Positions 507-6,902 of a DNA stretch of 10,754 bases are shown one piece after another. Below the pieces are notes generated by a model. That model had not been told where the DNA came from and did no database searches. It saw nothing but the letters and a program-made list of their open reading frames with translations. The stretch lies in UHGV virus genome UHGV-0300898. The stretch is one strand, 5' to 3'. Position 1 is the first letter of the stretch, and each line of letters opens with the position of its first letter. The position numbers and the translations under genes were made by a program. Source of the DNA: a virus.

Positions 507-2801
507 TTACTTACCAGCAGCAGCTTTGCCTTCGCCAGCAACGTTACCTGCTACACCACCTTCGGTTTGTTTCTGACCGTTCTGTTCAACAGAAACATTG
601 TAAGCCAGTTTTTCTTCAACCAGTTTGGTGATGCCTTTAACCCAGATCAGACCAGTGATCGGGCAGTGGCAGATGTGCGCGTTACGCGGCTGTACGGCCA
701 GCTCTTTAGAGGTAGAGCCGTTACGCTGAATGTTGATGTTAGTAACCATGATCGGAGACCAGAAGTGGTTACCCCAGTTCAGCACGTTGTAGGAACCATC
801 GTCCGCAGTCGGAACTTTCAGGAACCATTGCAGACGACGAGTCCAGGAACCGTCAGCTGCGTTGTAGATACGCCAGCGGTCATCGTTGGTGGTGATCACT
901 TCGTATTCGTAGCGATCGCCCAGCAGACGTTGGTCGCCCTGTACCAGCAGCAGCATGGATGCAGTCGGTTCGTCGGTTGCAATAACAACCTTCGGCAGAA
1001 TGTCCGGATCGGCAGTGTACAGACGCAGCGCAGGAATGAAGCGAGATTCCTGGATAGCCTGAGTTACCTGATTACCGATACGCTGTACCAGGCCCTGACG
1101 AGCGTTGATCAGTGCATCTTTGGTATCCAGGGACTGTACAACTTCATCAACGTTGTAGTCAGACTCTTTGAACCACGGAGCAACCCAGTGACGGCCCAGA
1201 CCACGAATGGCCGGTTTGTCCCACGGAGTGATCATGCTTGCAGCAGCGTTACGTACCGCTTCGGTGTAAGACAGCGTCTGAGTGATAGCCAGCTGTTCGT
1301 TACGGATGTTAACTGCGGAAATCAGGTCGTCCAGACGTTCGGTATCGTCGTATTCAACACCAACCGGAGACTTGGTCAGAATCGGAGAACCGTATTGCAG
1401 TTTGTAGTTTTCTTGTTCCCAGATTGGGTCAAGCAGCAGACCCTGGGTACGACGGTTTTCGTTGGTACGAGTACCATCGAAGCGCCAGCCCATCAGTTCG
1501 AGCTTCAGACCTTCCAGAACAACTTTGCCGGTACCAGATTTGGTATCAACCTTGTTACCGGTAGCGTCGTACAGACCTTCGATTTCCAGTTTGTGACCCG
1601 CGATGTCAACTTTACCACCAAACTGACCGGTAGTGAACAGAGACATGTTGATGGTGATCACATAACGCAGGGTGTAGGAGTTCTGTTCCAGTGTTTTCAG
1701 AGCCGGAATAGCTGCACCAGTCCAGTCGGTAGTTTTCGCGTTCAGAGAGAATGCGGTACGACGGAATTGCAGTACCAGCTCACGGCCATCGCCTTCAGCA
1801 GGACGCTGGAAGGTTGCGAACTGCATGTCACGAACGTGCAGTTTGATGAATTTACCTGCTTTCGCTTCTTCGGTCGGTTTACGTACAGAAATCAGCAGGC
1901 TGCCCAGAGCACAACCCGGTGCGATTTCATCAGTTTCGTCGTAACCTTCCTGAACGATACCCGGATGCGCAGACAGCTGGAACAGGTTCAGAGTGTCTTT
2001 AGCAAAGCTCAGGTAGTTAGTCGGGTACGGAGGTACACGGCCCAGACGAACAGATTCGTTCGGTACCAGATCTTCGCTTACGAAGTATTCAGCGTTTTCA
2101 CCGGTTTCCATTACGTAAGGAACGATGTTGATCGCTTCGTCCTGGAGAACGGTGTGGTCGGTCAGCGCGTTGTGCAGCGGACGACGATGATCTTCAACAA
2201 CGTCTTTGCTCAGCAGTGCGTTCATTACACCGCGAGAAACGGTGGTCACTTTGGTACGTACGGTAATACCAACATCGTTGGTGTCAACAGTGATGGTCGG
2301 GAACAGAGTCTCAGCGAAACGAGACTGGGTTTCCAGAGCACGTACGTTCAGCGTCCAGGTCAGACCCAGGTTTTTGTCGTAGTCTTTGTTGGTGTAGTAT
2401 TCCTGAGCGACAACCATACGCTCTTTGCCCCAGTCGCCGTTACCAGCTTGGGAACCAGGAATCGCAACGTCCAGGTTAAAACGGCTATGGAATTCTGGTT
2501 TAGCGTATTCTTGCGCTACTTTTTCTTGCAGGTCCATACCGTGACCAGCAGCACCCAGAATCATTGCAGAAGCAACTTCCGCAGCGTGGGACATTTTCTT
2601 ACCGCCAGCAAACGCGTTTGCGTAGTGCTGTGCAGCGTCGTCACGCAGGGTACCAAAAACTTTCGTGTTGCTACGTACAGATTCACCAGCAACGATGGTG
2701 TTCCACATTTCGCCAGCACTGTTGTTACTAATGACGCTTTGTACCAGCGAGTTACCAGCTTGTACGAGTTTCTCCAGATTAGAGATTCGGGTATCTTTCA
2801 T
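507..2801 (-). CDS. major virion structural protein, probably major capsid protein of a jumbo-type phage (764 aa); tail sheath is the alternative
   Basis: Longest ORF in the window. Codon usage is strongly biased toward high-expression codons (CGT, GGT, CTG, AAC, ACC, GAA), so strongly that the antisense strand carries an uninterrupted 752-aa artefactual ORF. SD TAAGGT lies 9 nt upstream of the ATG and a strong terminator follows the stop. Size matches the ~750-aa capsid proteins of phiKZ-like phages as I recall them. No homology search was possible. Confidence 0.85.
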   Translation of the reverse strand: MKDTRISNLEKLVQAGNSLVQSVISNNSAGEMWNTIVAGESVRSNTKVFGTLRDDAAQHYANAFAGGKKMSHAAEVASAMILGAAGHGMDLQEKVAQEYAKPEFHSRFNLDVAIPGSQAGNGDWGKERMVVAQEYYTNKDYDKNLGLTWTLNVRALETQSRFAETLFPTITVDTNDVGITVRTKVTTVSRGVMNALLSKDVVEDHRRPLHNALTDHTVLQDEAINIVPYVMETGENAEYFVSEDLVPNESVRLGRVPPYPTNYLSFAKDTLNLFQLSAHPGIVQEGYDETDEIAPGCALGSLLISVRKPTEEAKAGKFIKLHVRDMQFATFQRPAEGDGRELVLQFRRTAFSLNAKTTDWTGAAIPALKTLEQNSYTLRYVITINMSLFTTGQFGGKVDIAGHKLEIEGLYDATGNKVDTKSGTGKVVLEGLKLELMGWRFDGTRTNENRRTQGLLLDPIWEQENYKLQYGSPILTKSPVGVEYDDTERLDDLISAVNIRNEQLAITQTLSYTEAVRNAAASMITPWDKPAIRGLGRHWVAPWFKESDYNVDEVVQSLDTKDALINARQGLVQRIGNQVTQAIQESRFIPALRLYTADPDILPKVVIATDEPTASMLLLVQGDQRLLGDRYEYEVITTNDDRWRIYNAADGSWTRRLQWFLKVPTADDGSYNVLNWGNHFWSPIMVTNINIQRNGSTSKELAVQPRNAHICHCPITGLIWVKGITKLVEEKLAYNVSVEQNGQKQTEGGVAGNVAGEGKAAAGK

Positions 2802-2813
2802 TTGTTTAATACC

Positions 2814-3338
2814 TTAATGAGATAAATGACATGCGTATAATTGCGTCAGCACTTCGTTAGCGGCAAACTGCGTTGAGGTACTGAAGCAGTCATCCACGAC
2901 GCGAGTCTTGGTACGCATATATTTAAAAAGTTCTGCGCAGAACATCTTTTTCGCAGCGTGGTCTTCACCCGAAGAAAAACCCGAACCGGACTTTGCTTCT
3001 GCAAATGACGCCACAATCGTATCACCACGTTGAGTAAACACCCAACGTACGCGACAAGGAATTGTTTCCCCATATAAATCGTCAAGGGAAACCTTTTCGC
3101 CTGATTCGACCAGACGTAACACCTGATCATAATATTTACCTGGAAGCACAGGCGGAGCCATCAGTGCTTTATAAATAGCAGAACGACTTACTTCAGGTAA
3201 GATGATAGAACTGAAACCATTCGGACAGTCATATAACCAGTTAAAGAACCCTGCCTGGAGCAATTCTATACTTTTAACGGCAGCGCCTTTATCTATGTTA
3301 GGTTGAACTTCCCACGGTGGACTAAAACGAATTTGCAT
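2814..3338 (-). CDS. hypothetical protein (174 aa)
   Basis: Complete ORF in the track. SD GGAG lies 9 nt upstream of the ATG at 3338. Its stop TAA (2816..2814) overlaps the SD of the downstream 764-aa gene, giving a tightly packed co-directional pair. Confidence 0.7.
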   Translation of the reverse strand: MQIRFSPPWEVQPNIDKGAAVKSIELLQAGFFNWLYDCPNGFSSIILPEVSRSAIYKALMAPPVLPGKYYDQVLRLVESGEKVSLDDLYGETIPCRVRWVFTQRGDTIVASFAEAKSGSGFSSGEDHAAKKMFCAELFKYMRTKTRVVDDCFSTSTQFAANEVLTQLYACHLSH

Positions 3339-3351
3339 TTAAGGATGCTCC

Positions 3352-4914
3352 ATGAATAACAAAATGATGTTGATAACCGCCTTAGCCACATTATACGCTG
3401 AAAGTCTTCTGACCGATCCTGAAAAGGACCACGACATCATAAGAAAAGTGCTGTTAGAGGCTAAGCTTCCTGATTACGCAGAGGAAGGTGACGAACGTGC
3501 CGCCCTCGTCGAAATCAAGGATATCATCACATCCATCATAGACGGCGGTATGCCTTACGACCACACAAACGTCATGAAACGTTTGAAACTGGCCACTACG
3601 CAAATACGTCCTCTATACGATACGATTACCAAATTCCTGGAAGATGATATTCCAGAAGAACCAGAAGCACGCATCGAGCATCTTAATCGCCAAGTAGCAC
3701 AATACTACTTTCAGTTACGTCAAGCTATTCAAGGCGTACAACTGAAACAAAAATTGGGTCGTACGTTAGGCGCACTGAACGGTACCGAAACGCGCGTTGA
3801 TTTACAAACGGCGCTCAACGACCTTAAGGATACCTTATCCACGTTCAGTGAACGCTCTCATAATAAGATTCCTTCTCTGGTAGGGGAATTGATTACTGAC
3901 AATAAAGCACCTTTCGTGCACGTATTCGACTCTATCAGTAAGAAAGCGGCAGGGAACGGGTTGCGTACAGGTTGGAAAGCAATTAACCAGATGCTCGGTT
4001 GTAACAAAGGGATCACCGAAGAACTCTGGCTGATGCCTGCTCTCCCCTTTAACTGTAAGTCATTATTCAGTTTATTGCTCTCTATTAGCATTCCCGTTTT
4101 CAACACCCCAGAAAAGGTGATGGCGAATGTTAAGGGTGATCTACAACCGGTTATTCTAGATTTAAGTTTAGAAAACGAATTGGATGTTAACTTGGCTTAC
4201 GCGTATCAGGCACTATACGGACACTTTGAAGGTACAGCCCCGGTAATGGTTGCGCCAGAAACCGCAACTGACGAAGAAAAAGCGTCACATAATGCACAAA
4301 TGTCAGACTACCTCTGTAGTAAGATGCGGGCGAACGGTTGGGAGTATATTTTCCAAAAACACACAAACTCCGATTTTAAAATTCACTATTTAAACGATTT
4401 GATTTTAGATTTAAAACGTCGAGGTTATCATGTAGCTGGAATACGCGGAGACTATTTCGGTACTATCAGCAAAGCAGGGCACGGTAACGGCATTGCGGGT
4501 AGCGACATTAAAGAAATTTATCGTATCGCGCGAAACATCCAAGTGGTACGTAATCGTGGTTTCCTGTTAGCACCACACCAAATCTCACCAGAAGGCAAAA
4601 AATTAAAAGCACTCGACCCAGCAAGTTTCTGTAAGAACTTACCTGGTCGTGGTCTTCACGACAACTGCTCTAGCTTAGACAACGAAGCTGACGGTGAGAT
4701 GTATTTTAACAAACGTGTCGTCAACGGTCACAGCTATTTAGAAGTACAACGCGGTAAACACCGTACCATTATTGATACCAAAGAAGCTTATCATTATACT
4801 GTAATACCTTTCCGCGATGTTGGCATTTTGCCATGGGATTGTGATAAAGAAGAAACTGTAACAGCCTCGTCGATTAACGTATTTACCGGCGGCATGGGTG
4901 ACGAACTCTTTTGA
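3352..4914 (+). CDS. hypothetical protein (520 aa); helical, charged N-terminal region; no recognisable catalytic motif
   Basis: Complete ORF. SD AAGGA at 3340-3344 with a 7-nt spacer to the ATG. TGA stop is followed immediately by a GC hairpin at 4919-4936. The only plus-strand gene in the window. Confidence 0.8.
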   Translation: MNNKMMLITALATLYAESLLTDPEKDHDIIRKVLLEAKLPDYAEEGDERAALVEIKDIITSIIDGGMPYDHTNVMKRLKLATTQIRPLYDTITKFLEDDIPEEPEARIEHLNRQVAQYYFQLRQAIQGVQLKQKLGRTLGALNGTETRVDLQTALNDLKDTLSTFSERSHNKIPSLVGELITDNKAPFVHVFDSISKKAAGNGLRTGWKAINQMLGCNKGITEELWLMPALPFNCKSLFSLLLSISIPVFNTPEKVMANVKGDLQPVILDLSLENELDVNLAYAYQALYGHFEGTAPVMVAPETATDEEKASHNAQMSDYLCSKMRANGWEYIFQKHTNSDFKIHYLNDLILDLKRRGYHVAGIRGDYFGTISKAGHGNGIAGSDIKEIYRIARNIQVVRNRGFLLAPHQISPEGKKLKALDPASFCKNLPGRGLHDNCSSLDNEADGEMYFNKRVVNGHSYLEVQRGKHRTIIDTKEAYHYTVIPFRDVGILPWDCDKEETVTASSINVFTGGMGDELF

Positions 4915-4918
4915 GTCT

Positions 4919-4936
4919 GGGGAGCTTCGGCTCCCC
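4919..4936 (+). terminator. stable hairpin GGGGAGC-UUCG-GCUCCCC directly after the 520-aa gene; no U-tract, so either a 3' stability element or a non-canonical terminator
   Basis: Perfect 7-bp GC stem with a UUCG tetraloop, 4 nt after the stop codon. Followed by CTATAACCCC rather than a T-run. Confidence 0.4.
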
Positions 4937-5019
4937 CTATAACCCCTTATGCGTCTCGAAAAACAAAAAAAAACAGAAGGCTATTAATTATGAACGGAAA
5001 ACAACTACCGAACTAAGTA

Positions 5020-5046
5020 GGGGGTGGTAGCAACACCCCCTTTATT
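5020..5046 (+). terminator. intrinsic terminator, GGGGGTG-loop-CACCCCC plus TTTATT (first member of a three-copy terminator family)
   Basis: 7-bp stem 5020-5026/5034-5040, 7-nt loop, then TTTATT at 5041-5046. Preceded by an 8-codon mini-ORF (4990..5016) that has an SD. Confidence 0.55.
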
Positions 5047-5159
5047 AGTTAGTAACTTATCTCCTTAGAGGTGGTTGCTGAACATTATGGTTGTTAACCG
5101 TTTTCATTACCTTTCGTAATGTTGTAAAAACGTCAACAACTTTATGTGTTGATGCCGTA

Positions 5160-5189
5160 CAGCAGAGACTGGCGGAACAGTCTCTGCTG
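5160..5189 (+). other. perfect 12-bp hairpin (CAGCAGAGACTG / CAGTCTCTGCTG, 6-nt loop) abutting repeat copy 1
   Basis: Exact reverse-complement arms at 5160-5171 and 5178-5189. The position-equivalent hairpin before copy 2 (5561-5586) has an unrelated sequence but the same architecture. Confidence 0.7.
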
Positions 5190-5232
5190 CTTTAACTTCT
5201 CTTTGGAAAAGTTAAAGCTATGAAAAGGGGTG
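5187..5232 (+). repeat. 46-nt conserved element, copy 1 (CTGCTTTAACTTCTCTTTGGAAAAGTTAAAGCTATGAAAAGGGGTG); contains a 9-bp inverted repeat CTTTAACTT-N10-AAGTTAAAG
   Basis: 45/46 identical to 5586..5631, the single mismatch being 5224 A versus 5623 T. The copies are offset by exactly 399 bp. The internal inverted repeat is 5190-5198/5209-5217. Confidence 0.85.
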
Positions 5233-5250
5233 GTGGTGCACCCCTTTTTA
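5227..5250 (+). terminator. intrinsic terminator GGGGTG-GTGGTG-CACCCC plus TTTTTA (family copy 2)
   Basis: 6-bp GC stem, 6-nt loop, then a T5 run at 5245-5249. It begins inside the conserved element. Confidence 0.55.
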
Positions 5251-5291
5251 TTATACTTACGACCACCATCTCGGCAGGTTACTGTACGAGG

Positions 5292-5326
5292 AGGAGAGGC
5301 GCTGACACGCCTCTCCTTTATTTGTT
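5292..5326 (+). terminator. intrinsic terminator, stem GGAGAGGCG/CGCCTCTCC with loop CTGACA, followed by TTTATTTGTT
   Basis: Perfect 9-bp stem 5293-5301/5308-5316, extendable with flanking A-T and G-U pairs, followed by a T-rich tract. Confidence 0.6.
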
Positions 5327-5498
5327 AGTAGTGTTCACTCCTCTTTTCAGTGAATATCCGCGTGAAACGGTTGGTAGACGGTTTTAACCGTTTATCCATG
5401 CCGAGCTGACTATACTTGTAGATACGTTGCTGTAAATTGGTCTTTGCTGCACTCTGCTCTGCAAGCATTTTGTCGGTAAAGTAGTAACCATTGTTCAT
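5325..5498 (-). CDS. small basic hypothetical protein, 57 aa (MNNGYYFTDKMLAEQSAAKTNLQQRIYKYSQLGMDKRLKPSTNRFTRIFTEKRSEHY)
   Basis: Below the 60-aa cutoff of the ORF track and found by hand translation. ATG at 5498..5496 is preceded by SD GAGGG with a 6-nt spacer; TAA stop at 5327..5325. It lies between the two copies of the 46-nt element. Confidence 0.35.
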   Translation of the reverse strand: MNNGYYFTDKMLAEQSAAKTNLQQRIYKYSQLGMDKRLKPSTNRFTRIFTEKRSEHY

Positions 5499-5531
5499 GG
5501 TAAGCCCTCTTTGTAGGGTGATTAAAGAAAT

Positions 5532-5551
5532 CCACTACGGAAACGTAGTGG
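5532..5551 (+). other. perfect 8-bp hairpin CCACTACG-GAAA-CGTAGTGG with a GNRA-type tetraloop
   Basis: Exact inverted repeat with a GAAA loop, about 35 nt upstream (minus sense) of the 57-aa ORF start. Confidence 0.6.
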
Positions 5552-5560
5552 TGTTGTAAA

Positions 5561-5586
5561 GGGTACGCTGTAGCACCAGCGTACCC
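5561..5586 (+). other. perfect 10-bp hairpin (GGGTACGCTG / CAGCGTACCC, loop TAGCAC) abutting repeat copy 2
   Basis: Same position relative to the conserved element as the 5160-5189 hairpin, with a completely different stem sequence. Confidence 0.7.
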
Positions 5587-5631
5587 TGCTTTAACTTCTC
5601 TTTGGAAAAGTTAAAGCTATGATAAGGGGTG
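5586..5631 (+). repeat. 46-nt conserved element, copy 2
   Basis: See copy 1; 45/46 identity at a 399-bp offset. Confidence 0.85.
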
Positions 5632-5656
5632 TGACAGCACCCCTTTATTTTATTTA
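5626..5656 (+). terminator. intrinsic terminator GGGGTG-TGACAG-CACCCC plus TTTATTTTATTT (family copy 3)
   Basis: Same stem as 5227-5244 with a different loop, followed by a long T-rich tract. Confidence 0.6.
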
Positions 5657-5749
5657 GTAGTTACTTCTCCTTTCGGTGAAGATTTGTACTCGTCGATTAT
5701 TAGAAGGTTTAAACCTTTTATTTAATCCAAGCTGTTGAATTTGCGAAAA

Positions 5750-5799
5750 TAAATAAAGTGTACCCCTAATCCTTTTCGGGATTAGGGGTTGCTTTTATT
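5750..5799. terminator. bidirectional intrinsic terminator (10-bp perfect stem CCCCTAATCC/GGATTAGGGG)
   Basis: Stem 5763-5772/5779-5788 with loop TTTTCG. A T-rich tract follows on the plus strand (5789-5799) and an A-rich tract precedes it (5750-5760), which is a U-tract on the minus strand. Sits directly after the stop of the 271-aa minus-strand gene. Confidence 0.75.
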
Positions 5800-6610
5800 T
5801 AGTCGCTACGTATTGAACATGGCCACATTCTTTACATTCCACGTTGGCTTTCGGGATTGTCAGGCCGGTTAAAGGAACACGGATTTGATACTGTGCTCCA
5901 CATTCTTCACAAACAAAATCGTATTCTGGATAGACACGACCTTCTAATTTCTCTTCTTTCCTTAGTGTGCCTGCTAAGAACAGCATCGCACCTAACGCTT
6001 CATTAATCTGCTGTTCCCATTCTCCGTCTAACGGGTAAGCGAACGCACGAGTCAACGTTTCCACCATCTCTGGAGTATTACTTACATAAACGTGTTTCAG
6101 TTCAAACTCAACACGTTGCAAGCCGAACAATACGCGCGCCGTCACGGTAACATTATCCAACGTTTGTGCAAACACAACGGGATTATCGTCACCATACATT
6201 GCGAATAACGCAGCACGTTCGTATTCGATATCACTCCACTCGATTAGTTCTACAGATTTAATCGCTTCCGCAATCTCAGCATTACCGAACGTTTCGTGTT
6301 CCAATAATCCGACGATAACTTCATTCAACGATTTCAATTGCTGTAATCGAATCGTAGGATCGGTATTCACGATAAGTAAACGATGCATTCTGGATTTCAA
6401 CCAGTTAATCGTTCCTTCTACACCGCCCCCAAACGAGCAGATGCTTATCACTTCAGGTTCACGAAGGATAAGAGTTGATTTTCCTGCTGCCGTACTCAAG
6501 TAGAGTTTAAAAGACTTATCGTTAGACTCTGCAACGATGGCAATGTCTTCAGTTGGAACGAAGTTTTCATTGCTCAGCCCACGCGGAAAATAATCTTTAA
6601 TAGTAATCAT
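5795..6610 (-). CDS. hypothetical protein with a C-terminal CxxC-N22-CxxC zinc-ribbon (271 aa)
   Basis: Complete ORF. SD GGAG is 8 nt upstream of the ATG at 6610. C-terminus reads ...VCEECGAQYQIRVPLTGLTIPKANVECKECGHVQY. Terminator immediately downstream. Confidence 0.75.
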   Translation of the reverse strand: MITIKDYFPRGLSNENFVPTEDIAIVAESNDKSFKLYLSTAAGKSTLILREPEVISICSFGGGVEGTINWLKSRMHRLLIVNTDPTIRLQQLKSLNEVIVGLLEHETFGNAEIAEAIKSVELIEWSDIEYERAALFAMYGDDNPVVFAQTLDNVTVTARVLFGLQRVEFELKHVYVSNTPEMVETLTRAFAYPLDGEWEQQINEALGAMLFLAGTLRKEEKLEGRVYPEYDFVCEECGAQYQIRVPLTGLTIPKANVECKECGHVQYVATK

Positions 6611-6664: not shown

Positions 6665-6808
6665 TTAACCACGACCAGTGCACTGTGCAACGGAATTACC
6701 GTTGTCGATGCAAGTGTCGTAGCCTTTGTCGATATCCAGGTACAGGCAACCCAGAACAACAGCGATAACAACAGCGAAGATAGCTTTTTTGTGTTTTACA
6801 GAAATCAT
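6665..6808 (-). CDS. small putative lipoprotein or membrane protein, 47 aa (MISVKHKKAIFAVVIAVVLGC|LYLDIDKGYDTCIDNGNSVAQCTGRG)
   Basis: Below the ORF-track cutoff. ATG at 6808..6806 is preceded by the perfect SD AGGAG with a 7-nt spacer. N-terminus has a basic region, then a hydrophobic stretch, then VVLGC, which fits the lipobox pattern. Leu at +2. Dedicated terminator downstream. Confidence 0.55.
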   Translation of the reverse strand: MISVKHKKAIFAVVIAVVLGCLYLDIDKGYDTCIDNGNSVAQCTGRG

Positions 6809-6902
6809 GATATAACTCCTAATTAGGTATTCGATAAATGAGTATTACGTAAACTCTCACCTAGGTAATATATATCTGAAATCTTTTTGAATCCATATAC
6901 CC

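What the first reader, a model, noticed from the sequence alone, without database searches (positions are those of the whole stretch)
5160..5656. Duplicated 46-nt conserved element flanked by hairpins that keep their shape but not their sequence
The 46-mer CTGCTTTAACTTCTCTTTGGAAAAGTTAAAGCTATGA(A/T)AAGGGGTG occurs at 5187-5232 and 5586-5631, 45/46 identical and exactly 399 bp apart in direct orientation. Each copy has the same three-part architecture. First comes a perfect GC-rich hairpin whose sequence is unrelated between copies (12-bp stem at 5160-5189, 10-bp stem at 5561-5586). Then the conserved core, which holds a 9-bp inverted repeat with a 10-nt loop CTCTTTGGAA. Then a GGGGTG...CACCCC hairpin with a different loop in each copy (GTGGTG versus TGACAG), followed by a T-tract. 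Conserved core plus structure-preserving variation in the flanks points to selection on structure or function rather than a recent duplication. It could be a structured small RNA, a promoter or operator for a phage-specific factor, or a mobile regulatory cassette. Promoter-stem-loop cassettes of this general kind have, as I recall, been described in T4-type phages. An ATG sits in the core, but the downstream frames differ between copies (55 versus 12 codons), which argues against a conserved peptide.
Basis: seen in the sequence. Interest (0 to 1): 0.78.

Follow-up and report, generated by a model that had tools for sequence, protein, structure and literature searches.

The report
Terminator-pair boundary between small phage gene cassettes
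The repeated 46-mer is the shared centre of a hairpin / AT-rich palindrome / hairpin boundary that separates small genes on the opposite strand of an uncultured SPN3US-like jumbo phage; it most likely works as a two-way transcription stop, and it is the point where related phages have swapped and lost these genes.

Summary
Two 46-mers (5187-5232 and 5586-5631) differ at one base, lie 399 bp apart, and each sits between GC hairpins.

The window comes from an SPN3US/phiEaH2-like jumbo phage. The 880-bp gap holds a decaying tandem array of small paralogous genes on the minus strand. One is intact (5325-5498) and three are remnants.

I compared 12 close relatives. On the minus strand every junction reads: stop codon, hairpin T1, linker, 30-nt AT-rich palindrome (the true core), hairpin H2, 5'UTR, next small gene.
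- T1 follows the upstream gene and H2 follows the downstream gene.
- Only the core is common to all junctions.
- Nine different gene pairings meet at the core, and one core is a chimera. The core is therefore the recombination joint.

The ATG/TATG inside the 46-mer is not conserved. The core occurs only at this locus.

In this phage family terminators are a GC hairpin followed by a CTTTTATTT-type tail. The palindrome arms look like two such tails facing each other, and SPN3US has the same single-copy arrangement.

Best reading: a two-way terminator/insulator that also serves as a PeSL-like shuffling joint. A further sequence-specific role (promoter, or minus-strand RNA hairpin) is not excluded. 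Interest is moderate.

The parts
5189..5218 (-). Core copy 1: a 30-nt AT-rich palindrome. Minus strand reads GCTTTAACTTTTC-CAAA-GAGAAGTTAAAGC.
   Evidence: It is identical or nearly identical at junctions in 12 related genomes.
5588..5617 (-). Core copy 2, same sequence as copy 1.
5161..5188 (-). H2 hairpin, type A. It abuts core copy 1 with no spacer and travels with small gene A. On the plus strand it is followed by the tail-like GCTTTAACTTCTC.
5560..5587 (-). H2 hairpin, type B. It abuts core copy 2 and travels with small gene B.
5223..5248 (.). T1 hairpin, copy 1 (AAAAGGGGTG-GTGGTG-CACCCCTTTT). It is the terminator-like hairpin that follows the remnant of gene C and has T-rich tails on both strands.
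5624..5645 (.). T1 hairpin, copy 2 (AAGGGGTG-TGACAG-CACCCCTT). It follows the remnant of gene D. Its loop is the reverse complement of the loop in L005 and L148.
5325..5498 (-). Small gene B (57 aa), the only intact cassette gene in this window. The two core copies flank it.
   Evidence: dN/dS is about 0.14 between orthologues. It is paralogous to genes A, D and E, and E and F link the group to SPN3US gp194/gp195.
5292..5317 (.). Hairpin after the stop codon of gene B, with a TTTATTTG tail on the plus strand.
5257..5289 (-). Remnant of the 3' end of small gene C. In L004 the rest of gene C is present, together with its own core and H2.
   Evidence: window B->A' junction compared with the L004 C->A junction.
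5057..5107 (-). A 16-codon remnant of small gene A, produced by an internal deletion. Gene A is intact (53-56 aa) in L004, L005, L007 and L021.
5654..5739 (-). 5'-truncated remnant of small gene D. Gene D is intact (55-56 aa) in L007, L147 and L148.
5737..5754 (-). Half palindrome CTTTATTTATTTTCGCAA. This is the canonical terminator tail after the 271-aa gene's hairpin, and it equals the left arm plus loop of the palindrome found in relative L011.
5762..5789 (.). Bidirectional terminator hairpin of the 271-aa gene (5795-6610, minus strand).
   Evidence: Its loop is inverted in 5 of 12 genomes.
5019..5041 (.). Hairpin after the stop codon of gene A, at the last position of the array.
5532..5551 (-). 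Hairpin in the 5'UTR of gene B. Its loop is TTTC or GAAA (reverse complements) in different genomes.

Best explanation
What it is. Each copy is the centre of a compound boundary between neighbouring small-gene cassettes that are transcribed on the minus strand.

How it most likely works. In this phage family an intrinsic terminator is a GC-rich hairpin followed, within a few bases, by a CTTTTATTT-type tail. At each boundary two such terminators face each other.
- On the minus strand, hairpin T1 plus the left arm of the palindrome (CTTTAACTTTTC) stops transcription coming out of the upstream small gene.
- On the plus strand, hairpin H2 plus the complement of the right arm (CTTTAACTTCTC) stops antisense transcription coming from the convergent helicase side.
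- T1 also carries a canonical tail on the plus strand.

Why it looks as it does. Both tails follow the same consensus and lie back to back, so together they read as an AT-rich palindrome. The hairpins only need to keep their shape. They therefore drift by compensatory changes and their loops flip. The tails are constrained in sequence, so the core stays constant.

How it behaves in evolution. The array arose by tandem duplication of the unit [palindrome, H2, 5'UTR, small gene, T1]. The genes have since diverged to 27-42% identity. The 30-32 bp core is the only homology left between cassettes, so recombination between cores deletes, swaps and reorders cassettes.

What is shown and what is inferred.
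- Shown: the anatomy, the restriction to one locus, the gene array, the mosaic with break points at the core, and the resemblance of the arms to the family's terminator tail.
- Inferred: that the hairpin-plus-tail units really terminate the phage RNA polymerases, and that homologous recombination is the exchange mechanism.
For: Context.
- The window is SPN3US-like: a phiKZ-type capsid gene and a divergent DnaB helicase, the latter 85% identical to phiEaH2.
- The 880-nt gap carries small minus-strand genes. These are under purifying selection and form one family with SPN3US gp194/gp195.

Anatomy.
- In 20 distinct modules taken from the window and 11 related loci (12 genomes), the order on the minus strand is always T1, linker, core, H2, UTR, ATG.

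Recombination joint.
- T1 and the linker follow the upstream gene. H2 follows the downstream gene.
- Nine pairings meet at the core: E|D, E|C, E|A, E|B, D|B, C|B, C|A, C'|A and F|D.
- Homology ends at the edges of the core.
- The L147 E|D core has an AAC-type left arm and a GATAA-type right arm, which indicates a crossover inside the core.

Terminator tails.
- In SPN3US, 22 of 118 GC hairpins carry TTTATT+ within 20 nt, against a background of 0.5%.
- The two hairpins flanking the SPN3US palindrome each carry that tail, on opposite strands. They are the only closely spaced hairpin pair in 240 kb with an AT-rich palindromic spacer.
- The same tail follows hairpins outside the array in this phage group.
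- The core arms match it at 7 of 9 positions. The CTTTATCTTTTC variant is almost identical to the tail after the 271-aa gene (CTTTATTTATTTTC).
- Where H2 is absent, upstream of gene E, only the T-rich half is present.
- The polarity is the same in four other lineages: T-rich arm next to T1, A-rich arm next to H2.
- The plus-strand consensus scan flags both H2 hairpins, and T1 copy 2, as terminator-like.

Literature. Sequence-specific terminator motifs with a TTAT tail are documented by transcript-end mapping in phiKZ and 201phi2-1 (PMC10914365, PMC11512511).

Single locus. Exact-pattern scans of IMG/VR and of the metagenome collection find the core only here, in about 10 genome-length contigs.
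Against: - A tail consensus alone does not explain why the cores are identical over 30 nt at paralogous junctions, including the off-consensus AAC/GTT.
- It also does not explain why the two arms co-vary (AAC/GTT versus ATC/GAT). Both features require either concerted evolution by recombination or template switching, or an extra sequence-specific function.
- The centre of the core is never inverted in 27 copies, while the loops of 7 neighbouring hairpin families flip freely. That points to a polar, sequence-specific constraint.
- About five independent G.U events, against no A.C events, favour a minus-strand RNA structure for core plus H2. This does not fit selection on H2 as a plus-strand terminator.
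- If T1 terminates efficiently, each downstream small gene needs a promoter, and none has been identified.
- Some junctions lack the core altogether (L007 D->A, L148 D->B).
- There are no transcript data for this phage or for SPN3US.
Confidence: 0.55

Rival explanations
1. PeSL-type composite cassette in the strict sense. T1 is the terminator of the upstream gene. The AT-rich core is, or contains, a promoter for a phage RNA polymerase that restarts transcription of the next small gene. H2 then forms the protective 5' stem-loop of that mRNA.
For: - The core is the only sequence shared by all junctions between a terminator-like hairpin and the next start codon.
- It is AT-rich, like the early and middle promoter elements of RNAP-encoding jumbo phages (PMC7598289).
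- H2 starts 0-3 nt after it in all lineages.
- The orientation of the core centre is fixed.
- The layout matches stop / stem-loop / AT-rich promoter / SD / ATG as described for PeSLs (PMC2839356).
Against: - A promoter class should recur across the genome. The core is confined to one locus, and SPN3US has a single such palindrome in 240 kb.
- It does not resemble the conserved TTTCAGATATATATTAC motif of this family.
- TATG is not conserved.
- A palindromic shape is not needed for a promoter.
- Gene E, and the genes at the core-less junctions, manage without the right arm and H2.
Confidence: 0.17
2. A cis-acting RNA element on the minus strand. Read-through transcripts fold the core into a 13-bp AU-rich hairpin stacked on H2. 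A nuclease or an RNA-binding protein recognises this, either to process the polycistronic RNA between a 3' protective hairpin (T1) and a 5' protective hairpin (H2), or to gate expression of the next gene. The binding protein could be one of the small proteins.
For: - The minus strand pairs in 99.6% of cells, with about five independent G.U events and no A.C events.
- The minus-strand fold is more stable in most of the 20 modules. The summed energy is -1002 versus -944 kcal/mol. The core alone is -14.4 versus -11.5.
- There is no spacer between the core and H2.
- The core sequence is far more constrained than a hairpin requires: stems differ at 0-2.6% of sites, against 5-8% for H2 stems.
- The element co-occurs strictly with the small-gene family across genera.
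Against: - It requires read-through of T1.
- The G.U count is small (p about 0.03).
- The fixed U.G pair was imposed by my search pattern in the metagenome hits.
- Template switching can keep the arms complementary without selection (PMC8794818).
- There is no Rfam match.
- The small proteins match no known RNA-binding family.
Confidence: 0.18
3. A structured small RNA on the plus strand. It would consist of H2', the core hairpin and T1', end at the strong T-tract after T1', and be antisense to the 5'UTR of the neighbouring small gene.
For: - The plus strand folds into three hairpins with z from -8 to -10.
- T1' has a canonical terminator tail on the plus strand.
- phiKZ makes abundant short RNAs that end at terminators inside 5'UTRs (PMC10914365).
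Against: - No promoter-like motif lies upstream on the plus strand.
- H2' carries its own tail, so a plus-strand transcript should stop before reaching the core.
- The mismatches fall on the plus strand as A.C.
- Hairpin identity follows the minus-strand genes.
- There is no Rfam hit.
Confidence: 0.05
4. A DNA-level site: either an operator for a dimeric phage protein, or a cruciform-prone recombination hotspot that is cut by the phage's palindrome-specific nuclease. In the second case cassette shuffling would be its main 'function'.
For: - The arms are perfectly symmetric and vary symmetrically.
- Break points lie at the core.
- SPN3US annotates an SbcD-like palindrome-specific endonuclease subunit.
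- Frequent loop inversions show that the inverted repeats in this region do pair within a strand.
Against: - The central 10 nt is asymmetric and its orientation is fixed, which a symmetric DNA site would not require.
- The T-rich/A-rich polarity of the arms is conserved across genera.
- No candidate binding protein has been identified.
Confidence: 0.05

Closest known systems
PeSLs (promoter-early stem-loop cassettes) of T4-type phages (Arbiol et al. 2010, PMC2839356; Comeau et al. 2014, PMC4122927)
   Same: - Short composite intergenic motifs sit between small orphan genes in a variable region.
- A G/C-run stem-loop lies right after the upstream stop codon, followed by an AT-rich conserved segment.
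- Insertions, deletions and replacements between close relatives end inside the motif.
- Two direct copies flank a single gene, so excision by recombination is possible.
   Different: - No sigma-70 promoter is present, and this phage family uses its own RNA polymerases.
- The conserved part is a palindrome that resembles two opposed terminator tails.
- A second hairpin (H2) follows the conserved part.
- The element is confined to one locus with 1-2 copies per genome. PeSLs occur as dozens of copies across several variable regions.
Sequence-specific intrinsic terminators of phiKZ-like phages: hairpin plus TTAT tail, some bidirectional (Putzeys et al. 2024, PMC10914365; 201phi2-1 study, PMC11512511)
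   Same: - A GC-rich hairpin is followed by a conserved T-rich tail that contains TTAT/TTTAT.
- They occur between convergent genes.
- In SPN3US and in this phage group the same hairpin-plus-CTTTTATTT form recurs.
   Different: - Here two terminators on opposite strands share complementary tails that form a perfect palindrome.
- The tail is off-consensus (CTTTAACTT).
- The tail pair is duplicated along with gene cassettes.
Integron attC sites and gene cassettes
   Same: Small genes are separated by palindromic elements, and the cassettes differ in number and order between relatives.
   Different: - No integrase is present in the window.
- The palindrome is conserved in sequence rather than only in structure.
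- The chimeric core fits homologous exchange rather than site-specific exchange.
- Each cassette has its own UTR and hairpins.
Hairpin-loop inversions and arm homogenisation by replication template switching (PMC8794818, PMC8604942)
   Same: Loops that are exact reverse complements between genomes, with unchanged stems, and compensatory stem changes.
   Different: This is a mutational process, not a functional class. It explains how the hairpins stay perfect but does not say what they do.

Membership tests
PeSL (T4-type promoter-early stem-loop cassette) | Lies in intergenic gaps between small orphan genes of a variable region | tested here: met
   Small minus-strand genes A-F flank every copy. 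They have no significant PHROG or Pfam match; the best E-values are 0.03-0.1, below any cut-off.
PeSL (T4-type promoter-early stem-loop cassette) | G/C-run stem-loop immediately after the upstream stop codon, acting as a terminator | tested here: inconclusive
   The T1 hairpin (GGGGTG..CACCCC) is present with T-rich tails. Terminator activity cannot be tested here.
PeSL (T4-type promoter-early stem-loop cassette) | [quoted passage not shown] | tested here: not met
   The consensus scan finds no sigma-70-like site on the core or H2. RNAP-encoding jumbo phages transcribe with their own polymerases (PMC7598289).
PeSL (T4-type promoter-early stem-loop cassette) | Many copies spread over several variable regions of the genome | tested here: not met
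   The core is found only at this locus in about 10 genome-length contigs. SPN3US has one such palindrome in 240 kb.
PeSL (T4-type promoter-early stem-loop cassette) | Indels and replacements between close relatives have their end points in the motif | tested here: met
   Nine gene pairings are joined at the core, homology ends at the core edges, and one core is a chimera.
PeSL (T4-type promoter-early stem-loop cassette) | Cassette mini-circles formed by recombination between flanking copies | not testable with these tools
   This needs inverse PCR on infected cells or virions.
phiKZ-family intrinsic terminator (hairpin plus TTAT/TTTAT tail) | GC-rich perfect hairpin | tested here: met
   T1 and H2 have 8-12 bp stems. 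Seven of the 11 H2 pairs covary.
phiKZ-family intrinsic terminator (hairpin plus TTAT/TTTAT tail) | Conserved T-rich tail (CTTTTATTT-like) within about 0-8 nt of the stem | tested here: inconclusive
   The tail is canonical for T1 on the plus strand. The core arms CTTTAACTT(T/C)TC match at 7 of 9 positions, and the variant CTTTATCTTTTC contains TTTAT.
phiKZ-family intrinsic terminator (hairpin plus TTAT/TTTAT tail) | Transcript 3' ends map to the tail | not testable with these tools
   No transcriptome was found for SPN3US-like phages.
phiKZ-type late promoter | Invariant TATG overlapping the transcription start (PMC7598289) | tested here: not met
   The plus-strand TATG of the 46-mer reads TAAG, TTTG or CGTA, or is absent, in relatives.
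SPN3US-family early-promoter-like motif | TTTCAGATATATATTACYTAGGTGAG followed by a hairpin and a conserved leader | tested here: not met
   SPN3US has six copies. The window has one, at 6856-6881(-), and it is not at the element.
Any curated RNA family (Rfam 15) | Covariance-model match at gathering score | tested here: not met
   There are no matches at the gathering score. The permissive search gives only chance-level hits.
Integron attC / gene cassette | Adjacent tyrosine recombinase; attC conserved in structure rather than sequence | tested here: not met
   No recombinase is among the window's genes. The core is conserved in sequence.

The most novel reading that the evidence does not exclude
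The palindrome is not merely two terminator tails. It would be a dedicated, polar cis-element that co-evolved with this small-gene family. It could act as a hairpin-dependent start signal, or as a put/nut-like RNA signal for a jumbo-phage RNA polymerase. It would then make each small gene an autonomous cassette that can be moved by recombination. That would amount to a gene-cassette system in nucleus-forming jumbo phages, analogous to PeSLs or integrons but built on different parts.
Probability: 0.15. Interest if true: 0.7.

Novelty: new variant of a known kind. Interest (0 to 1): 0.4.

Why it matters
If this reading holds, three things follow.

1. Nucleus-forming jumbo phages would shuffle small accessory genes at short shared regulatory boundaries, as T4-type phages do with PeSLs. 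Here the shared piece would be a pair of opposed terminator tails rather than a host-type promoter.

2. It yields a concrete, testable terminator grammar for SPN3US-like phages: a hairpin plus a CTTTTATTT-type tail. It also gives a single-copy model of the module in a cultivable phage (SPN3US, positions 67,345-67,425).

3. The locus is a clean natural example of hairpin-loop inversion and stem homogenisation. That matters for anyone who reads covariation as proof of selected RNA structure.

None of this overturns current views, so the interest is moderate.

Tried and rejected
Searches that failed or were wasted
- The first viral scan used the wrong spacer (12 N instead of 14) and found nothing.
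As a result I cannot exclude isolated half-cores elsewhere in these genomes.
- There is no nucleotide match in GenBank phages in near or distant mode.
- The exact helicase protein is not on record.
- There is no match in bacterial or archaeal genomes, so no host clue.
- No transcriptome of an SPN3US-like phage is in the paper library.

Hypotheses tested and rejected
- Known RNA family: none found.
- Sigma-70 promoter at the element: none found.
- Conserved peptide starting at the core ATG: rejected because the ATG is not conserved.
- phiKZ-type TATG late promoter: rejected for the same reason.
- Early-promoter class: the family's conserved TTTCAGATATATATTAC motif is different and lies elsewhere.
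- Replication origin next to the helicase gene: the cumulative GC skew of SPN3US shows no turn near 67 kb, and there are no iterons.
- Genome-wide dispersed repeat or MITE: rejected, because the element is at one locus only.
- Type I toxin-antitoxin: the small proteins are hydrophilic and basic rather than membrane peptides.

No result
- The small proteins have no significant PHROG or Pfam match; the best E-values are 0.03-0.1, below any cut-off.
Full report
CHECK OF THE OBSERVATION

The 46-mer CTGCTTTAACTTCTCTTTGGAAAAGTTAAAGCTATGAWAAGGGGTG occurs exactly twice, at 5187-5232 and 5586-5631. None of 200 shuffles gave a match. The copies are 399 bp apart, and the similarity runs over 105 nt at 75% identity.

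The flanking GC hairpins are all present:
- 5160-5189, with a 12-bp stem;
- 5560-5587, with an 11-bp stem;
- the GGGGTG..CACCCC hairpins with different loops and T-rich 3' flanks.

Each 98-nt module folds far better than shuffled sequence on either strand, with z from -8 to -10.

WHERE WE ARE

The window encodes several recognisable genes:
- a phiKZ-type major capsid protein (507-2801, minus strand);
- a divergent DnaB-like helicase (3352-4914, plus strand);
- virion proteins.

The helicase is 85% identical to that of Erwinia phage phiEaH2 and 83.5% identical to that of Salmonella phage SPN3US. There is no nucleotide-level match in GenBank phages. The source is therefore an undescribed member of the SPN3US-like jumbo phages.

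The finding lies in the 880-nt gap between the convergent helicase gene and a 271-aa gene (5795-6610, minus strand). In SPN3US the same gap holds two annotated 48-aa genes, gp194 and gp195, on the strand of the 271-aa homologue.

RELATIVES

A peptide-pattern search with the helicase found four IMG/VR contigs of 150-225 kb with 97-100% helicase identity. An exact-pattern scan of metagenomes added ten more stretches, most of them from contigs of 200-228 kb.

In all of these contigs the core occurs only in this gap, in one or two copies. The scans required a near-exact core, so diverged or half copies elsewhere cannot be excluded. Two looser scans were swamped by chance hits.

THE REGION IS AN ARRAY OF SMALL MINUS-STRAND GENES

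Across the 12 genomes the gap holds two to three intact small genes (50-61 aa), plus remnants, all on the minus strand. They fall into six types, which I label A to F.
- They are real genes. For gene B, dN/dS is about 0.14 at dS up to 0.55.
- They are paralogues of each other and of SPN3US gp194/gp195.
- They have no significant PHROG or Pfam match; the best E-values are 0.03-0.1, below any cut-off.

In this window only gene B (5325-5498) is intact. Three others survive as remnants:
- A, reduced to 16 codons (5057-5107);
- C, reduced to its last codons (5257-5289);
- D, which has lost its 5' half (5654-5739).

ANATOMY OF A JUNCTION

Read on the minus strand, every junction that carries the element has the same order:
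1. stop codon;
2. hairpin T1 (usually GGGGTG..CACCCC);
3. a 6-10 nt linker;
4. the palindrome GCTTTAACTTTTC-NNNN-GAGAAGTTAAAGC;
5. hairpin H2, with no spacer;
6. a gene-specific leader of about 55 nt with a Shine-Dalgarno sequence;
7. ATG.

CTATGA reads CTAAGA, CTTTGA, CGTAAA or CGCCTA, or is absent. Neither the ATG nor a TATG is therefore conserved.

T1 and the linker go with the upstream gene. H2 goes with the downstream gene. Only the 30-32 nt core is common to all junctions.

THE CORE IS THE JOINT WHERE CASSETTES ARE EXCHANGED

The junctions seen are E|D, E|C, E|A, E|B, D|B, C|B, C|A, C'|A and F|D. Homology between genomes ends at the two edges of the core. The order of cassettes also differs: B then C in L004 and in the window, but C then B in L143 and L141.

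One core (L147 and L144, junction E|D) combines the left arm of the AAC type with the right arm of the GATAA type. This is what a crossover inside the core would produce.

In this window the two cores flank gene B as direct repeats.

In effect this is what was described for PeSLs in T4-type phages, where recombination between short composite regulatory motifs moves orphan genes (PMC2839356, PMC4122927).

STRUCTURE AND STRAND

On the minus strand 99.6% of cells of the core-plus-H2 alignment form standard pairs.
- Seven of the 11 H2 pairs change on both sides.
- The core has one such pair (A-U to U-A).
- About five independent G.U events have no A.C counterpart. This favours the minus strand, with p about 0.03.

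The minus strand is also the more stable fold in most of the 20 modules, with summed energies of -1002 versus -944 kcal/mol.

Two cautions apply. First, my metagenome search pattern fixed most core positions, so the invariance of the core is partly ascertainment. The five genomes found through the helicase are unbiased, and they show the same picture. Second, hairpin loops in this region are very often exact reverse complements of one another between genomes while the stems stay unchanged: 11 such pairs in 7 hairpin families. That is the signature of template switching between inverted-repeat arms, which also homogenises arms and can mimic compensatory evolution (PMC8794818, PMC8604942). Covariation here is therefore weak evidence for selection on structure.

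The centre of the core, in contrast, is never inverted in 27 copies. Its stems differ at 0-2.6% of sites between orthologous junctions. The comparison values are 5-8% for H2 stems, 8% for the leader, 14% for third codon positions and 53% for H2 loops. The core is therefore constrained in sequence and in orientation.

WHAT THE CORE IS MADE OF

A covariance model of core plus H2 gave weak hits at the homologous position in more distant relatives with 74-83% helicase identity. There the order is:
1. the terminator hairpin of the 271-aa homologue;
2. an AT-rich palindrome;
3. a second GC hairpin;
4. a leader of about 25 nt;
5. a small gene of the same family.

The palindromes in these relatives are:

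| Relative | Palindrome |
|---|---|
| SPN3US | TTTATTTTC-CGAAAA-GAAAATAAA |
| L011 | CTTTATTTATTTTC-GCAA-AGAAAATAAAAG |
| L014 | TTTATTTTTTC-ATTGC-GAAAAAATAAA |

Relatives that lack the small gene also lack the palindrome.

In the complete SPN3US genome this is the only AT-rich palindrome of its kind. It is also the only close pair of GC hairpins with such a spacer. It is therefore not a general promoter class.

The key result is the terminator tail.
- 22 of the 118 GC hairpins of SPN3US are followed within 20 nt by TTTATT+, against a background of 0.5%. The usual form is hairpin, then 0-8 nt, then CTTTTATTT.
- The two hairpins around the SPN3US palindrome each carry that tail, on opposite strands.
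- The same tail follows hairpins outside the array in the present phage group.
- Transcript-end mapping in phiKZ and 201phi2-1 has shown that terminators of this phage family carry sequence motifs, including a TTAT tail (PMC10914365, PMC11512511).

The arms of the core, CTTTAACTT(T/C)TC, are tail-like at 7 of 9 positions. The variant CTTTATCTTTTC is almost identical to the tail after the 271-aa gene (CTTTATTTATTTTC). Upstream of gene E, where there is no H2, only the T-rich half remains.

MOST LIKELY MECHANISM

The module is a two-way transcription stop between cassettes.
- T1 plus the left arm ends minus-strand transcripts.
- H2 plus the complement of the right arm ends plus-strand (antisense) transcripts coming from the helicase side.
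- T1 also has a canonical plus-strand tail.

Two tails of the same consensus placed back to back read as a palindrome. Hairpins are constrained in shape only, while tails are constrained in sequence. Tandem duplication of the cassette multiplied the module, and the shared tail pair then served as the homology for shuffling.

I put this at about 0.55.

WHAT THIS MODEL LEAVES OPEN

Four features are not fully explained:
- the exact identity of paralogous cores, including the off-consensus AAC/GTT;
- the co-variation of the two arms;
- the fixed orientation of the centre;
- the minus-strand G.U bias.

These can be explained by concerted evolution and template switching. They fit equally well with an additional sequence-specific role. 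That role could be a promoter for a phage polymerase, with H2 as the 5' stem-loop (the strict PeSL reading, about 0.17). It could instead be a minus-strand RNA hairpin recognised by a nuclease or binding protein (about 0.18).

The plus-strand small-RNA reading is unlikely (about 0.05), and so is a purely DNA-level site (about 0.05). No transcript data exist to decide between these.

OTHER IDEAS TESTED
- Rfam gives nothing.
- There is no sigma-70 site at the element.
- The family's early-promoter-like motif is different and lies elsewhere.
- The GC skew of SPN3US gives no hint of an origin at this locus.
- No copy was found in bacterial genomes.

VERDICT

The feature is real and non-random. It is best described as a terminator-pair boundary module of small orphan-gene cassettes that acts as a recombination joint. 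It works like a PeSL but fails two defining PeSL features: it has no sigma-70 promoter and it is not dispersed in many copies. It is a new variant of known kinds of element, of moderate interest.

Noticed in passing
window 5172-5177, 5571-5576, 5632-5637, 5540-5543, 5773-5778; same hairpins in L004, L005, L007, L143-L148: Hairpin loops are exact reverse complements between genomes while the stems are unchanged. Examples: GCGGAA/TTCCGC, TAGCAC/GTGCTA, TGACAG/CTGTCA, TTTC/GAAA, TTTTCG/CGAAAA. There are 11 inverted pairs in 7 hairpin families across 12 genomes. H2 loops differ at 53% of sites, against 14% at third codon positions. This looks like very frequent template-switch inversion.
   Followed up: partly
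window 6856-6881 (minus strand), upstream of ORF 6665-6808(-): The motif TTTCAGATATATATTACCTAGGTGAG is followed by a short hairpin and a leader with a Shine-Dalgarno sequence. SPN3US has six near-identical copies, each followed by a hairpin and most by a conserved AATCGACTATTA..AAGGAG leader. This is probably the virion-RNAP early-promoter class of this phage family. It is a more literal promoter/stem-loop cassette than the finding itself.
   Followed up: partly
window 4919-4975; L001 5571-5640; L002 5575-5640: After the helicase stop codon come a GGGGAGC-TTCG-GCTCCCC hairpin, then CCCCTTATGCGTC and a run of 8-9 A. This arrangement is conserved across genera (this phage, SPN3US, phiEaH2). The TTATG segment resembles the phiKZ terminator tail.
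   Followed up: no
window 5057-5107, 5257-5289, 5654-5739: Three of the four small-gene cassettes in this genome are deletion remnants. A has an internal deletion, C retains only its 3' end, and D retains only its 3' half. The array is decaying in this lineage, although the same genes are intact and under purifying selection in relatives.
   Followed up: yes
window 567-2825 (plus strand): A 752-codon open frame runs antisense to almost the whole major capsid gene (507-2801, minus strand). The PHROG and Pfam matches are to the minus-strand product, so this is presumably a shadow frame, but its length is striking.
   Followed up: no
L141 (ERZ1026973.508), contig end next to the array: The metagenome contig ends in CTGTCTCTTATACACATCTCCGAGCCCACGAGAC. 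From memory, this is the Nextera adapter sequence, so that contig end would be an assembly artefact.
   Followed up: no
L001 5860-5950 (SPN3US gp195-gp194 junction): The second SPN3US small gene has no AT palindrome upstream. Instead it has CAGCGATATATTAAC, a degenerate form of the early-promoter-like motif, embedded in an imperfect hairpin about 24 nt before the ATG.
   Followed up: no
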